A DNA stretch of 64,000 nt from Bradyrhizobium sp. (GCA_045811665.1 JBJMTO010000197.1:6613-70612); one strand, 5' to 3'; shown: positions 57,631 to 61,323, counted from the first letter of the stretch. Program-made: numbers and translations. The notes: generated from the sequence alone by a model not told the origin.

Positions 57631-57791
57631 GTGGTGCGTCGGAATAAGGGCGATGCCGGGGTGTTGGTCCACTTGACTACCGGGGCCGACGTCGCGCCGA
57701 CATGATCGCGTGGCAGCAGGAAATCTGGTAAAAACCGCCCCGTCATATGCCAAGAAGCGGGGAATCCGCATCACATCTATGGGAGAGCATC

Positions 57792-58781
57792 ATGGAATTG
57801 ACACGACGTCACGCACTTGCCGGGGCCGCTGCGCTCGCAGCCACCCCCTTGCTGCCAACCGCGCCTGCCGGAGCGGCAGTGCCGCTCGCCGACAAGCAGG
57901 CGCCCAGCTTCTATCGCTACAAGGTTGGCGAGGCACAGGTGAACGCTATTTCGGATGGCGTGAATACTTTCCCGCTCCCCGATACGTTGGTCCTCAATGC
58001 CAAAAAAGACGAAGTCAACGCCGCGCTCGATAAGGCTTTCCTGCCGAAAGACAAGATGAGCGTCCATTTCGCGCCGCTGGTCATCAATACCGGGGGCAAG
58101 CTGGTCATCGTCGATACCGGCAACGGCCCTGGCGCTTTTGCATCCAGCAAGGGCAATGTCGGACAATTCGCAAACAACATGGCGGCAGCGGGCTTCGACC
58201 CGAAAGCCGTCGATATGGTGGTGATCTCTCACTTCCATGGCGACCACATCAACGGCCTGCTTACGGCGGACAATGTTCTGGCCTTCCCGAATGCTGAAGT
58301 GTTGGTGCCTGCCGCCGAGTGGAAGTACTTCATGGATGACGGCGAGATGAGCCGCCAGACCACCGAGCGCATGCAGGGCGTGTTCAAGAACGCGCGCCGG
58401 GTTTTCGAAGCCGGCCTCAAGAAGAAGGTCACCCCTTACGAGTGGGGCAAGGACGTCGCTCCCGGACTGGCAGCGGTGTCTACCGTCGGTCACACCCCGG
58501 GACACACCTCGTTCGTGCTGTCCTCCGGCTCGGACAAGCTGTTCATCCAGTCCGACGTGACCAACCACCCGTCATTGTTCGTCGCCAACCCAGGCTGGCA
58601 CCTGATGTTCGATCAGGACCCCACCATGGCTGAGGCGACCCGGCGCAAGGTCTATGACATGCTTGTCGCGGACCGGATGCGCGTCCAGGGCTTCCACTAT
58701 CCGTTCCCGGCCAACGGCTATGTCGAGAAGGACGGTAATGGGTACCGGCTGGTCCCGGCGCCCTGGAGCCCTGTGATCTGA
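57792..58781 (+). CDS. Tat-exported MBL-fold metallohydrolase
   Basis: TRRHAL twin-arginine signal; HFHGDH and GHTPGH motifs. Confidence 0.92.
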   Translation: MELTRRHALAGAAALAATPLLPTAPAGAAVPLADKQAPSFYRYKVGEAQVNAISDGVNTFPLPDTLVLNAKKDEVNAALDKAFLPKDKMSVHFAPLVINTGGKLVIVDTGNGPGAFASSKGNVGQFANNMAAAGFDPKAVDMVVISHFHGDHINGLLTADNVLAFPNAEVLVPAAEWKYFMDDGEMSRQTTERMQGVFKNARRVFEAGLKKKVTPYEWGKDVAPGLAAVSTVGHTPGHTSFVLSSGSDKLFIQSDVTNHPSLFVANPGWHLMFDQDPTMAEATRRKVYDMLVADRMRVQGFHYPFPANGYVEKDGNGYRLVPAPWSPVI

Positions 58782-58791
58782 TGATCTGCAA

Positions 58792-58822
58792 TCCCGGGGC
58801 GACATCAGACGTCGCCCCGGGA
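58792..58822 (+). terminator. 12-bp hairpin after the MBL gene
   Basis: TCCCGGGGCGAC / GTCGCCCCGGGA perfect stem, without an adjacent U tract. Confidence 0.55.
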
Positions 58823-58853
58823 CGGCCTCCTTTGCAATAAGCGATCGAGCATC

Positions 58854-58882
58854 TTGACGACGAACGGGCGCGGCCTTATAGC
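58854..58882 (+). promoter_or_regulatory. Sigma70-type promoter of the leader-paiB-argC unit
   Basis: cTTGACG-N17-TATAGC; predicted start site at about 58889. Confidence 0.75.
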
Positions 58883-58888
58883 CGCGCC

Positions 58889-58963
58889 ATGATCAACGCA
58901 GTGACCATTGTCATCGCTCGCCGCCGCCGCACCTCAGCGGTTTGGGCCGATATCTGCGTTTAA
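58889..58963 (+). CDS. Putative leaderless leader peptide MINAVTIVIARRRRTSAVWADICV
   Basis: ATG 7 nt after the -10 box; four tandem CGC codons at 58919-58930; lies upstream of the argC unit. Confidence 0.7.
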   Translation: MINAVTIVIARRRRTSAVWADICV

Positions 58964-59054
58964 GATTTCAGCCTTCGCCGCCGGATCCACTCCGCGGCTT
59001 CTCTCCCCAAACGCGGTTTCATCTGGCGGCTCCTACTTCAAGCAGGAGTTTGAG

Positions 59055-59738
59055 ATGTACACGCCTCCCGTATTCAAGCCGGATCGAGCCGCTAGTCTCG
59101 CGTTCGCCCAGGCGCGCGGATTTGGAACTGTCACGGCGTGGAACGGCACGAGGCCGATTGCATCGCCGCTGCCGTTTGACCTTACTTACGGGGAGGACGG
59201 CGCGCCGAAGGTCGCTTTTCACCTCGCGCGCCACAATCCACTCGCGAAGCTCGCCGACGGTAAATCGCCTTGGTTGATTGGGGTTGGCGGCGCCGATGCC
59301 TATGTTTCGGCTGACTGGTACACCTCGGCGGAACAAGTGCCGACCTGGCTTTATCAGGCCGTGCATCTCGCGGGTCCTGTGCGCATGCTGCCCGATGATC
59401 AACTCGCCGCGCATTTGGATGCGCTCAGCGCAAGGTTTGAAGGTTGGCTGGCGCCCAAGCCGCCTTGGACGGTGTCGAAGATAACTGGCGCTCGTTTCGC
59501 TGCGCTGAAGAAGGCGATTGTAGGCTTCGTGATGTCGGTGGATGAGGTGGAGGGCAGCTTCAAGCTCAACCAGCACAAGTCCGACGCCGATCACGTGACT
59601 GTTGCCGCCGCGCTGGTATCGGGGAACGAGGCTGGCGCGCGATCGATTGGAGAACAGATGGTCGCTCTGCGGCCGCAGTTGAACTACAACTCACCTGCGA
59701 GCGCCGGTGAACCCGCGGATGAAAGGAACGCGCTATGA
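59055..59738 (+). CDS. PaiB-family protein ('FMN-binding negative transcriptional regulator')
   Basis: [25 protein letters not shown] and KLNQ motifs; AGGAG RBS. Confidence 0.88.
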
Positions 59739-60727
59739 CCCTCTCGGACACACAGCGGCCCAACCGCCAAGCTCCGACCGCTGGTAGCTCAACGAGACCG
59801 GCCGTCTTCGTCGATGGCGCGTCCGGCACCACTGGCCTCGGCATTCGCGAGCGCCTCGGCCTGCAGCATGACGTGACGGTGAAAAGCCTCTCCGAGGAGA
59901 AGCGAAAGGACGTAGGTGCGAAGCGGGCGCTGATGGATGAAGTAGACCTCGTGATCCTCTGCCTTCCGGATGACGCCGCAAAAGAAACCGTCGCAATGAT
60001 CGACACCATGGGGGCTGCGGCTCCCAAGGTTCTCGATGCCTCGACGGCCTTTCGCGTCGCAAGCGGCTGGACCTATGGCTTTCCCGAGCTCGTGCCGGGT
60101 CAGGCGGACAAGCTGCGGACTGCGCGGAAAGTATCCAACCCTGGTTGTTATCCGACCGGGGCGGTGGCGTTGCTCCGCCCGCTGGTCGATGGCGGCATCA
60201 TGCCGGCCGACTACCCGGTGACCATCAATGCCGTCAGCGGCTATTCGGGCGGCGGCAAGTCCATGATCGCAAGTTTCGAGGACGGCACCGCGCCAGCGTT
60301 CGAACTTTACGGTCTCGGCTTTGAGCACAAGCACGTGCCTGAGACCCAGCTTTACGCAAACCTCACGCGCCGGCCCATTTTCGTGCCGTCGGTCGGCAAT
60401 TACCGGCAGGGAATGCTGGTATCCGTTCCGTTGCATCTGGACACGTTGCCGGGCAAGCCGGATGGCACCGATCTGCATGCCGCGCTTGCCAGGCGTTACG
60501 GCGAAAGCAAAGACGTCTCGGTGATGCCGCTGGACAACGCGGCTGCAAAGAGCGGACGGATCGAACCGGAAGCGCTGAACGAGACCAACATGCTCGAGCT
60601 TTATGTGTTTGCGAGCGAGAAACACCGACAGGCGCTTCTCGTCGCCCGTCTCGACAACCTCGGTAAAGGTGCCTCCGGCGCGGCCGTTCAGAACATGCGC
60701 CTGATGCTGGGCATCGGCGAGCCCTGA
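59735..60727 (+). CDS. argC: N-acetyl-gamma-glutamyl-phosphate reductase (type 2)
   Basis: [22 protein letters not shown] and DNLGKGASG motifs. Confidence 0.95.
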
Positions 60728-60732
60728 CCGCC

Positions 60733-61323
60733 GTGGACAGGGAAACCCTCGAATTCTACGAGAGCAATGCGCAAGCGTATGCGGCGCGCGAGATCGCCAA
60801 GCATCAGCGGCTGAGCCGTTTTCTCGCGCTGCTTCCGAGCGCGGCTCGCATTCTCGAACTTGGATGCGGCGCCGGCGCGGATTCAGCGCAGATGCTGGCC
60901 GAAGGATTCGATGTTTGTCCGACTGACGGATCGCCGGAAATGGCGCAGCAGGCATCGCGTCGTCTCGGTCGTCACGTCCAGACGTTGCTGTTCCATGATT
61001 TGCACGAGGTGGAAGCCTATGACGGCGTGTGGGCCAACGCCTGCCTGCTTCATGTCCCGAGACCTGAGCTTGGTCCGGTGCTGGCGCGGATCTGGCGCGC
61101 GCTGACGCCCGGAGGGTACTTTTACGCGAGCTTCAAGGCGGGCGAGGCGGACGGACGGGATAGCCTCAATCGCTACTACAACTATCCATCGTCCGATTGG
61201 CTGCGAGCTACGTACTCCAGCGCCGGCAACTGGAGTTCACTGTCGATCGAGACAGGCAAGGTCAGAGGCTTTGACGGCGAATGGGCCGAGATGCTGTTCG
61301 TGGTCGCGCGCAAAATCTCCTGA
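60733..61323 (+). CDS. Class I SAM-dependent methyltransferase
   Basis: ILELGCGAG and DGVWANACLLH motifs. Confidence 0.9.
   Translation: MDRETLEFYESNAQAYAAREIAKHQRLSRFLALLPSAARILELGCGAGADSAQMLAEGFDVCPTDGSPEMAQQASRRLGRHVQTLLFHDLHEVEAYDGVWANACLLHVPRPELGPVLARIWRALTPGGYFYASFKAGEADGRDSLNRYYNYPSSDWLRATYSSAGNWSSLSIETGKVRGFDGEWAEMLFVVARKIS

What the first reader, a model, noticed from the sequence alone, without database searches (positions are those of the whole stretch)
58854..59057. Candidate arginine-sensing leaderless leader-peptide attenuator upstream of paiB-argC
Seen: TTGACG-N17-TATAGC would place the transcription start on the A of ATG 58889. That ORF has no RBS and encodes MINAVTIVIARRRRTSAVWADICV, with four consecutive CGC Arg codons. 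Downstream, GCCGCCGGAT (58977-58986) can pair with ATCTGGCGGC (59021-59030), and the Arg-codon run (GCCGCC) can compete for the same GGCGGC. CTCCT (59030-59034) can pair with the paiB RBS AGGAG (59044-59048). A pyrimidine/C-rich tract lies between, and there is no U-tailed terminator. Known: amino-acid leader peptides carry runs of the end-product codon, and argC is an arginine biosynthesis gene. Arg genes are classically controlled by ArgR rather than by attenuation, and I know of no described Arg-codon attenuator in this lineage. Inference: ribosome stalling at RRRR under Arg limitation controls paiB-argC by RBS occlusion or Rho-dependent termination. Caveats: CGC runs arise easily in GC-rich DNA, and the Ile/Val-rich N-terminus could indicate a different or second signal.
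Basis: partly seen in the sequence, partly recalled or inferred. Interest (0 to 1): 0.88.

Follow-up and report, generated by a model that had tools for sequence, protein, structure and literature searches.

The report
Arginine-sensing leader peptide before argC
A 24-codon mini-gene with four arginine codons in a row, starting right at the transcript's 5' end, sits before the arginine-synthesis gene argC in nearly all Bradyrhizobium and many related genera, and most likely lets a stalling ribosome report arginine shortage in bacteria where no ArgR repressor was found.

Summary
The promoter, the ATG 6-9 nt after the -10 box, the 24-25-codon uORF, its Arg run and the downstream GC-rich segments recur in 390 of 400 Bradyrhizobium species genomes. 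A covariance model finds them in 39 of 62 genera of the family. No real match turned up in about 147 genomes of other families in the order.

- **Translation:** 134 of 135 loci keep at least three consecutive Arg codons. All three stop codons are used at one site. All 9 indels inside the uORF are multiples of three, against 13 of 43 just downstream.
- **Target:** argC always follows the leader, in two distantly related forms, with or without paiB.
- **ArgR:** not found in 60 near-complete family genomes.
an invariant local hairpin (58977-58998) lies 13 nt after the stop codon and is followed by a pyrimidine tract. An upstream alternative helix competes with it. In silico, only a ribosome stalled at the first Arg codon switches between them.

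The output step (termination or RBS occlusion) is unresolved, and no transcription start or expression data could be obtained. This scan noted the same element before on other DNA (e1-4232639). I found no published description.

The parts
58854..58859 (+). -35 box TTGACG
   Evidence: Read. TTGAC is invariant in 26 of 26 aligned same-genus loci, and no similarity exists upstream of it.
58877..58882 (+). -10 box TATAGC, 17-nt spacer
   Evidence: The spacer is 17 nt in 123 of 134 loci, and the -10 box ends 6-9 nt before the ATG in 125 of 134.
58889..58963 (+). Leaderless uORF of 24 codons plus TAA (MINAVTIVIARRRRTSAVWADICV)
   Evidence: It is conserved in 134 of 135 loci. Stops are TGA 68, TAA 55 and TAG 11 at one site. 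All 9 indels are multiples of 3.
58919..58930 (+). Segment 1: four CGC Arg codons (the sensor)
   Evidence: Across relatives the run uses 482 CGC, 85 CGT, 1 CGA and no CGG, although CGG makes up 24% of Arg codons in long ORFs of this genome. It pairs with segment 2 in the consensus fold.
58937..58941 (+). Segment 2a, GCGGU: pairs either with the Arg codons or with GCCGC of segment 3
   Evidence: Pairing with segment 1. Pairing with segment 3: 100% or nearly 100% of cells in 67 sequences.
58944..58974 (+). Hairpin holding the uORF stop codon; with 2a:3 it forms the anti-terminator-like domain
   Evidence: There are 27 cells with changes on both sides, against 10.6 +/- 2.7 in shuffles (0 of 500 shuffles reach it).
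58977..58998 (+). Local hairpin H3: GCCGCCGG, 7-nt loop, CCGCGGC (candidate terminator or pause hairpin)
   Evidence: All 7 pairs form in 67 of 67 sequences and almost never vary. Stability is about -12 kcal/mol, and it starts 13 nt after the stop codon in 57 of 90 variants.
58999..59008 (+). Pyrimidine tract TTCTCTCCCC directly after H3
   Evidence: Positions 2-9 are about 95% pyrimidine and about 50% T across 90 variants. At least 5 T in 8 occurs in 41 of 90, and the window has 4. The tract is also complementary to the downstream SD.
59012..59030 (+). CGCGG and ATCTGGCGGC: 3' arms of the long hairpin with 58977-58998
   Evidence: the outer helix forms in 95% of cells and the inner helix in 98%.
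59030..59048 (+). CTCCT ... AGGAG: possible anti-SD/SD pairing and the paiB ribosome-binding site
   Evidence: The pairs can form in 86.6% of cells, but covariation is not above shuffles.
59055..59738 (+). paiB-like gene (PF04299 FMN_bind_2)
   Evidence: The leader sits directly upstream of all 80 paiB loci examined.
59735..60727 (+). [quoted passage not shown]

Best explanation
This is a ribosome-mediated, arginine-sensing leader-peptide attenuator of the paiB-argC transcript.

**Transcription and translation (inferred from geometry).** Transcription starts at or within 1-2 nt of the A of ATG 58889. The 24-codon uORF is therefore translated as a leaderless message.

**Arginine plentiful.** The ribosome runs to the stop codon. 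There it covers segment 2 and melts the stop-codon hairpin. Segment 3 (GCCGCCGG) then folds with CCGCGGC into the invariant local hairpin H3 (58977-58998), which is followed by a pyrimidine/U-rich tract. With no translation at all, the Arg codons themselves pair with segment 2 and H3 also forms.

**Charged tRNA-Arg scarce.** The ribosome stalls at the first CGC codon. GCGGU (58937-58941) is left free to pair with GCCGC of segment 3 on top of the stop-codon hairpin, and H3 cannot form.

**What is shown and what is inferred.** Shown by comparison: a conserved promoter, a translated frame, the Arg run, the segments, and linkage to argC. Shown only in silico: the stall-dependent switch. Inferred: H3 plus its tract stops or pauses RNA polymerase, so that stalling raises argC expression. 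Also inferred: in read-through transcripts the long hairpin (58977-58998 with 59012-59030) and the two SD-complementary pyrimidine tracts add a translational layer.
For: **Conservation**
- DNA similarity starts at the -35 box in 24 of 24 same-genus genomes.
- The region is present in 390 of 400 Bradyrhizobium species genomes, and in 283 of 286 high-quality ones.
- The covariance model hits 39 of 62 genera of the family.
- It gives only false hits inside coding regions in about 147 genomes of other families.

**Coding signature**
- 134 of 135 loci have a uORF with at least 3 Arg, and 116 have at least 4.
- There are 97 distinct peptides, 119 of 134 of them 24-25 aa long.
- All three stop codons occur at one site.
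- All 9 indels in the uORF are multiples of 3, against 13 of 43 in the next 75 nt.

**Arg codons**
- 567 of 568 are CGC or CGT and none is CGG, although CGG makes up 24% of Arg codons in this genome.
- This fits pairing with segment 2, sensing of one tRNA, or both.

**Target**
- argC always follows the leader: TIGR01851 in the window, TIGR01850 in other genera, with or without paiB.
- As a control, only 1 of 29 argC loci from other families has an RRR uORF upstream.
- ArgR (PF01316) was found in 0 of 60 family genomes at least 95% complete.

**Structure**
- H3 pairs in 67 of 67 sequences.
- The competing domain pairs in 90.5% of cells, with 27 double-sided changes against 10.6 in shuffles.
- It is on average 2.5 kcal/mol more stable than the H3 state once segment 1 is masked (the two labels printed in that output are swapped).

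**Switch test on 118 unique leaders**
- H3 is in the minimum-energy fold in 90 with no ribosome.
- It is in 8 with the A site on the first Arg codon.
- It is in 82 with the ribosome at the stop codon.

**Precedent**
- trpL of Sinorhizobium meliloti is a leaderless leader peptide in the same order (PMC10117765).
Against: - There is no experimental transcription start, ribosome footprint or arginine response. The RNA-library contigs laid on the USDA 110 locus span the whole region and say nothing, and the published TSS tables are truncated in the held copy.
- No canonical intrinsic terminator is present. The pattern scan finds none in the window or in USDA 110.
- The tract after H3 is mixed C/U. 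The window has 4 T in 8, and only 41 of 90 variants have at least 5.
- The key helices (H3, 2a:3, the outer long hairpin) are invariant, so they carry no covariation evidence.
- The in-silico switch works only for a stall at the first Arg codon and partly the second. It also depends on an assumed ribosome footprint.
- At equilibrium the full-length leader keeps the long hairpin whatever is masked, so any effect must be kinetic.
Confidence: 0.72

Rival explanations
1. The sensor is the same (ribosome stalling at the Arg run), but the output is not termination at H3. Either the ribosome-binding site of paiB or argC is occluded by one of two pyrimidine tracts (58999-59008, or CTCCT at 59030-59034), depending on which hairpin holds them. 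Or Rho loads on the C/U-rich untranslated stretch.
For: - No canonical U-tract terminator is present.
- Purines are almost excluded from the tract after H3.
- Both tracts are more complementary to the SD than shuffled versions: -8.9 and -8.0 kcal/mol against -6.9 and -5.6, with 0 of 200 shuffles as good.
- The two tracts trade off across lineages (r = -0.52). Lineages with a different SD (GAAGGAG, AAGGAC) have matching tracts.
- The hairpin-to-start distance is tightly kept at 23-30 nt in most loci.
Against: - A column-based test of CTCCT:AGGAG shows no covariation above shuffles.
- Nested-fold modelling predicts the SD to be less accessible when segment 3 is held upstream, which is the wrong sign for a biosynthetic gene.
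- Pseudoknots could not be modelled.
- The partner-permutation result is inflated by relatedness.
- Rho dependence is untestable here.
Confidence: 0.2
2. The conserved peptide itself is the functional product. It could be a small protein acting in trans. Or it could be a nascent peptide that stalls the ribosome in response to free arginine, as the fungal arginine attenuator peptide does. In either case the codon run would not be a tRNA-charging sensor.
For: - Length is tightly kept at 24-25 aa.
- Several positions besides the Arg run recur within Bradyrhizobium (MINAAT..., AVWA).
- The leader peptide peTrpL of S. meliloti has a function in trans (PMC7298713).
Against: - Across the family only the Arg run is conserved among 97 distinct peptides.
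- The recurring residues coincide with RNA segments that pair (AACGC with GCGTT, and the GCGGU/GGGCGG segments).
- Arg codons are restricted to CGC and CGT, which is a nucleotide-level constraint and not a protein-level one.
Confidence: 0.05
3. The region is a structured RNA (a riboswitch or protein-binding leader), or its inverted repeat is a DNA operator. On this view the open frame and the CGC run are by-products of GC-rich pairing segments.
For: - Both arms of the hairpins are very strongly conserved.
- ArgR was not found, so some other arginine regulator must exist.
Against: - The frame, the start at a fixed distance from the -10 box, the stop position with all three stop codons, and codon-sized indels are not expected of a non-coding element.
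- The arms of the long repeat are 36-60 nt apart with variable spacing, unlike an operator.
- There is no Rfam match even at E = 10.
Confidence: 0.03

Closest known systems
Classical leader-peptide transcription attenuators of enterobacterial amino-acid operons (trpL, hisL, leuL, thrL, pheL, ilvL; textbook knowledge)
   Same: - A short ORF in the 5' leader with a run of codons for the end-product amino acid.
- Three mutually exclusive pairings (1:2, 2:3, 3:4).
- A stop codon placed so that a terminating ribosome masks segment 2.
- The regulated gene belongs to that amino acid's pathway.
   Different: - The amino acid sensed is arginine. I found no description of this for an arg biosynthetic gene in the literature searched or in Rfam.
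- The uORF has no 5' UTR or RBS.
- The 3:4 hairpin is followed by a mixed C/U tract and not a U run.
- A further conserved pair of segments downstream refolds the terminator arms into a long hairpin.
Sinorhizobium meliloti trpL / rnTrpL attenuator upstream of trpE(G) (PMC6614838, PMC10117765)
   Same: - It is in the same order of Alphaproteobacteria.
- The leader ORF is leaderless and the transcript starts with its AUG.
- Control is ribosome-dependent.
   Different: - It senses Trp and has a canonical terminator.
- It is experimentally shown, and its released RNA and peptide act in trans.
- None of this is known for the present element.
Polycysteine leaderless short ORFs of mycobacteria (bioRxiv 10.1101/834739)
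   Same: - Leaderless uORFs with runs of one codon.
- They act as amino-acid-responsive attenuators of the operon behind them, in a GC-rich organism.
   Different: - They sense cysteine.
- They occur in another phylum.
- No sequence or structure is shared.
Salmonella speF leader orf34 (PMC6386406)
   Same: Ribosome pausing at consecutive arginine codons in a uORF changes the fold of the downstream mRNA according to arginine supply.
   Different: - It has two Arg codons in a 34-codon ORF with a normal RBS.
- It controls a polyamine gene through RNase G sensitivity, Rho and RBS unfolding.
- It does not control arginine biosynthesis.
ArgR repressor with ARG boxes (classical arginine control; textbook knowledge)
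   Same: It provides feedback control of arg biosynthetic genes by arginine supply.
   Different: - It is a protein repressor acting on DNA.
- Its DNA-binding domain PF01316 was not found in the window's genome or in 60 near-complete genomes of the family, while the control genomes scored.

Membership tests
Ribosome-mediated leader-peptide attenuator | Short translated ORF in the 5' leader of the regulated transcript | tested here: met
   - The frame is conserved in 134 of 135 loci.
- All three stop codons are used at one site.
- All 9 indels are codon-sized, against 13 of 43 downstream.
- Translation itself was not observed.
Ribosome-mediated leader-peptide attenuator | Run of codons for the amino acid made by the regulated pathway | tested here: met
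   - There are 3-5 consecutive Arg codons in 134 of 135 loci.
- The gene behind the leader is argC in every architecture seen.
Ribosome-mediated leader-peptide attenuator | Mutually exclusive hairpins whose choice depends on ribosome position | tested here: met
   - The pairings 1:2, 2a:3 with the stop-codon hairpin, and H3 can all form in 90-100% of cells.
- In silico, H3 is present in 90 of 118 leaders without a ribosome, in 8 of 118 with a stall at the first Arg codon, and in 82 of 118 with the ribosome at the stop codon.
- Covariation supports only the stop-codon hairpin.
Ribosome-mediated leader-peptide attenuator | Intrinsic terminator (GC-rich stem plus U run) as the 3:4 element | tested here: inconclusive
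   - The GC-rich stem is invariant.
- Its tail is mixed C/U. At least 5 T in 8 occurs in 41 of 90 variants, and the window has 4.
- The pattern scan calls no terminator in the window or in USDA 110.
Ribosome-mediated leader-peptide attenuator | Expression of the downstream genes rises on starvation for the amino acid | not testable with these tools
   This needs reporter or transcript measurements under arginine limitation.
Leaderless mRNA | Transcription start at the A of the start codon | tested here: inconclusive
   - The -10 box ends 6-9 nt before the ATG in 125 of 134 loci, and there is no room for an RBS.
- Leaderless mRNAs are common in B. japonicum, where 192 starts map on the start codon (PMC4842269).
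- The start of this transcript could not be read: the supplements are truncated and only contigs were available.
Any Rfam family | Match to a curated covariance model | tested here: not met
   There is no match in 58000-60000 even at E = 10.

The most novel reading that the evidence does not exclude
In a large alphaproteobacterial family in which no ArgR was found, arginine biosynthesis is gated mainly at argC by a leaderless Arg-codon leader peptide driving a two-layer switch. The first layer is a terminator-like hairpin with no proper U tract. The second is a refolding into a long hairpin that controls two anti-SD tracts. Such an architecture has not been described for any amino-acid attenuator.
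Probability: 0.2. Interest if true: 0.8.

Novelty: new variant of a known kind. Interest (0 to 1): 0.62.

Why it matters
- **Textbook gap.** Arginine is the textbook case of an amino acid controlled by a repressor and not by attenuation. Here a trp/his-style codon sensor sits before argC in nearly every Bradyrhizobium genome and in Rhodopseudomonas, Tardiphaga and other genera, where the ArgR DNA-binding domain was not found.
- **Testable hypothesis.** It offers a concrete hypothesis for how these agriculturally important nitrogen fixers set arginine synthesis.
- **Annotation.** It adds an unannotated 24-25-codon gene to hundreds of genomes.
- **Control point.** The leader stays while the argC type behind it changes, which points to argC as the control point.
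- **Mechanism.** It is a compact natural example of a leaderless leader peptide with an atypical, U-poor output element.

Tried and rejected
- **Rfam.** A scan of 58000-60000 at E up to 10 found nothing.
- **Pattern scans.** The sigma-70 and terminator scans made no call for the leader in the window or in USDA 110. The promoter rule requires T at the last -10 position, and the terminator rule does not allow the bulge in H3.
- **Expression and start site.**
  - RNA-library contigs of four runs laid on the USDA 110 locus span the upstream gene, the leader and paiB-argC in one piece. They show no start, end or level.
  - The TSS and sORF supplements of PMC4842269 and PMC5082802 are truncated or lack the locus.
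- **Model hits outside the family.** Four weak hits all lie inside coding regions away from argC, so they are false.
- **Alternative pairing.** I tried GGGCGG and GCGG with segment 3 and CCGC. It is compatible in 89.5% of cells but shows no covariation. The GCGGU:GCCGC register found by constrained folding supersedes it.
- **Equilibrium folding.** The full-length leader, folded with a masked ribosome, keeps the long hairpin in the window, so no switch appears.
- **SD-accessibility modelling.** It gave the opposite sign to that expected and cannot handle pseudoknots.
- **First duplex analysis.** My first analysis of anti-SD tracts mislocated segment 4 in one clade and was redone.
- **Paralogous leaders.** The own genome has no other copy; the next best model hit has E = 0.047.
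- **Literature.** Searches for an arginine leader peptide of argC found none.

Full report
**1. Observation**

- TTGACG is at 58854-58859. After 17 nt comes TATAGC at 58877-58882, and 6 nt later ATG 58889.
- The ORF 58889-58963 encodes MINAVTIVIARRRRTSAVWADICV. Its four CGC codons are at 58919-58930, and no RBS precedes it.
- GCCGCCGGAT (58977-58986) is complementary to ATCTGGCGGC (59021-59030).
- CTCCT is at 59030-59034 and AGGAG at 59044-59048.
- The downstream genes are a PF04299 (PaiB-like) gene at 59055-59738 and argC at 59735-60727 (TIGR01851, 400 bits against a cut-off of 230). A methyltransferase gene follows.

That can be set aside. In the whole 4.79-Mb genome only 10 short ATG-ORFs carry four consecutive CGY codons. 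Six of them lie inside longer frames, and only this one has a promoter ending 4-9 nt before its ATG.

**2. Conservation**

- A DNA search of 24 same-genus genomes found the region in all. The alignments begin at the -35 box, and nothing upstream is alike.
- Named records show that the genus is Bradyrhizobium.
- The region is in 390 of 400 species genomes of the genus, and in 283 of 286 high-quality ones.
- A covariance model built from 26 leaders finds one copy in the window's own genome. It finds matches in 39 of 62 genera of the family, including Rhodopseudomonas and Tardiphaga.
- In about 147 genomes of other families of the order it gives only four weak hits. All four lie inside coding regions and are false.
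- All 80 PaiB loci fetched by protein similarity carry the leader 21-30 nt before the paiB start.

**3. Is the uORF translated?**

Across 135 loci:
- 134 have a uORF with at least three consecutive Arg codons, and 116 have at least four.
- There are 97 distinct peptides, and 119 of 134 are 24 or 25 aa long. The eight ORFs of 27-28 aa come from an extra in-frame ATG upstream of the conserved one. In the loci whose upstream sequence I inspected that ATG lies inside the -10 box.
- The stop falls at one alignment position but is TGA in 68 loci, TAA in 55 and TAG in 11.

All nine distinct indels inside the uORF are multiples of three, against 13 of 43 in the 75 nt that follow. The -10 box ends 6-9 nt before the ATG in 125 of 134 loci, which leaves no room for an RBS.

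Leaderless messages are common in B. japonicum, where 192 mapped starts fall on the start codon (PMC4842269). The trpL leader peptide of Sinorhizobium meliloti is itself leaderless (PMC10117765).

Only the Arg run is conserved across the family. The Ile/Val-rich N-terminus is not.

Of 568 Arg codons in the runs, 482 are CGC, 85 CGT, 1 CGA and none CGG. CGG makes up 24% of Arg codons in long ORFs of this genome. This fits pairing of the run with G-rich partners, where C-to-U changes keep G-U pairs. It also fits sensing of the one tRNA that reads CGU, CGC and CGA, which is textbook knowledge.

**4. What does it control?**

argC is the constant partner. Four arrangements occur:
- leader, paiB, argC (TIGR01851), as in the window;
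- leader directly before argC (TIGR01851), in one Bradyrhizobium that lacks paiB (L025);
- leader, paiB, argC (TIGR01850);
- leader directly before argC (TIGR01850).

The two ArgC types are only 28-30% identical, so the leader has stayed while the enzyme gene behind it was exchanged.

As a control, 29 argC loci from other families of the order were checked. Only one has any ATG-ORF with three Arg codons within 350 nt upstream.

The ArgR DNA-binding domain (PF01316) was not found in the window's genome (81.7% complete). It was also not found in 60 family genomes at least 95% complete, from 48 genera. The same search scored in E. coli, B. subtilis and other control genomes.

**5. Anatomy of the RNA**

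The consensus fold pairs the Arg codons (segment 1) with GCGGU and GGGCGG (segment 2). These helices hardly vary, so they carry little covariation evidence.

Two further elements emerged.
- **Hairpin H3.** GCCGCYGG and CCGCGGC are complementary to each other. They form a local hairpin, H3 (window 58977-58998), with a 6-8-nt loop in 88 of 90 variants (7 nt in 60) and a stability of about -12 kcal/mol.
  - H3 begins 13 nt after the stop codon in 57 of 90 variants.
  - All seven pairs form in 67 of 67 diverse sequences.
  - It is followed by a tract that is about 95% pyrimidine and about half U. At least 5 U in 8 occurs in 41 of 90 variants, and the window has 4.
- **Competing domain.** When segment 1 is masked, GCGGU (58937-58941) pairs with GCCGC of segment 3. 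This helix sits on top of a hairpin (58944-58974) that holds the stop codon.
  - The domain pairs in 90.5% of cells.
  - It shows 27 double-sided changes, against 10.6 +/- 2.7 in shuffles (0 of 500 reach it). Slid controls are far lower. Relatedness inflates such figures.

**6. Switch test**

For 118 unique leaders, each cut at the end of H3, I folded with an assumed ribosome footprint masked.

| Ribosome position | Leaders with H3 in the minimum-energy fold | Mean probability of H3 |
|---|---|---|
| No ribosome | 90 of 118 | 0.71 |
| A site on first Arg codon | 8 of 118 | 0.10 |
| A site on second Arg codon | 28 of 118 | 0.25 |
| A site on last Arg codon | 106 of 118 | 0.85 |
| At the stop codon | 82 of 118 | 0.74 |

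With the A site on the first Arg codon, segment 3 is paired upstream in 89 of the 118 leaders.

With segment 1 masked, the upstream-paired state is on average 2.5 kcal/mol more stable than the H3 state. It is the more stable state in 92 of 103 leaders (the two labels printed in that output are swapped, because the constraint symbols mean the opposite of what I assumed).

This is the logic of the trp attenuator. Segments 1:2 form without translation, 2:3 forms on stalling, and 3:4 (here H3) forms when translation runs through. The result depends on the footprint assumed, and it holds for stalling at the first Arg codon and only partly at the second.

**7. The output step is open**

H3 with its C/U tract looks only partly like an intrinsic terminator, and the pattern scan calls none. 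The hairpin after the neighbouring upstream gene (58793-58822) also lacks a U run. U-poor terminators may therefore be usual here, but that is a guess.

Both pyrimidine tracts are more complementary to the SD than shuffled versions. One is the tract after H3, and the other follows GGCGGC.
- The two trade off across lineages (r = -0.52).
- Lineages with other SD sequences have matching tracts.
- A column-wise test of CTCCT:AGGAG shows nothing beyond shuffles.
- Nested-fold modelling gives the wrong sign.

I therefore rank termination or pausing at H3 first, with a possible second, translational layer.

**8. Comparison with known systems and novelty**

The element works like a classical leader-peptide attenuator. 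It differs from one in four ways:
- the amino acid sensed is arginine;
- the uORF is leaderless;
- the terminator-like element is U-poor;
- extra refolding segments lie downstream.

Searches of the held literature found no arginine leader peptide for an arg biosynthetic gene. The closest published cases are:
- the speF orf34 Arg-codon pause in Salmonella (PMC6386406);
- leaderless trpL in S. meliloti;
- leaderless poly-Cys uORFs in mycobacteria (bioRxiv 10.1101/834739).

Earlier notes of this scan record the same paiB-argC leader in another genome (e1-4232639). They also record Arg-codon leaders before argC in unrelated phyla. These are unverified AI notes and are not independent support.

**9. 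Limits**

- No transcription start, 3' end, ribosome footprint or arginine response could be obtained.
- All mechanistic statements beyond conservation are inference from sequence and thermodynamic folding.

Noticed in passing
window 58793-58822: A perfect GC-rich inverted repeat (CCCGGGGCGAC ... GTCGCCCCGGG) lies 12 nt after the stop of the MBL-fold gene (57747-58781). It is probably that gene's terminator, yet it has no U run after it.
   Followed up: no
window 59735-59738 and 60727-60733: paiB and argC overlap by ATGA. A methyltransferase-domain ORF (60733-61323) starts 5 nt after argC. The leader may therefore govern three genes.
   Followed up: partly
L025:1400-1660 (-): One Bradyrhizobium genome (G013) lacks paiB. 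The same leader sits 51 nt before argC (TIGR01851) with a different SD (GAAGGAA). This shows that argC, not paiB, is the constant target.
   Followed up: yes
L046:1650-1720 (+): In one other genus, a canonical terminator-like hairpin with a T6 run (GGTCGGCCGACC then TTTTTT) lies between the leader and argC (TIGR01850). A helix also links the last leader segment to a downstream CTTGCGCC.
   Followed up: partly
L149:500-535 (+) and the B. japonicum/diazoefficiens clade: This clade carries a second SD-like AAGGAGG about 20 nt before the paiB start, inside a small GGCC...GGCC hairpin that overlaps the last leader segment. Its loop tract TCTCCTG is a perfect 7-nt complement of the real SD, CAGGAGA.
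   Followed up: partly
L179, 88 nt upstream of argC: In a genome of another family of the order, a 13-codon ORF (MIYLGLLAERRRS) with three Arg codons precedes argC. It may be an independent Arg leader.
   Followed up: no
G021 (L008, L028) and G670: Two genomes hold two copies of the leader-paiB region. In G021 the two copies lie on separate contigs and differ slightly.
   Followed up: no
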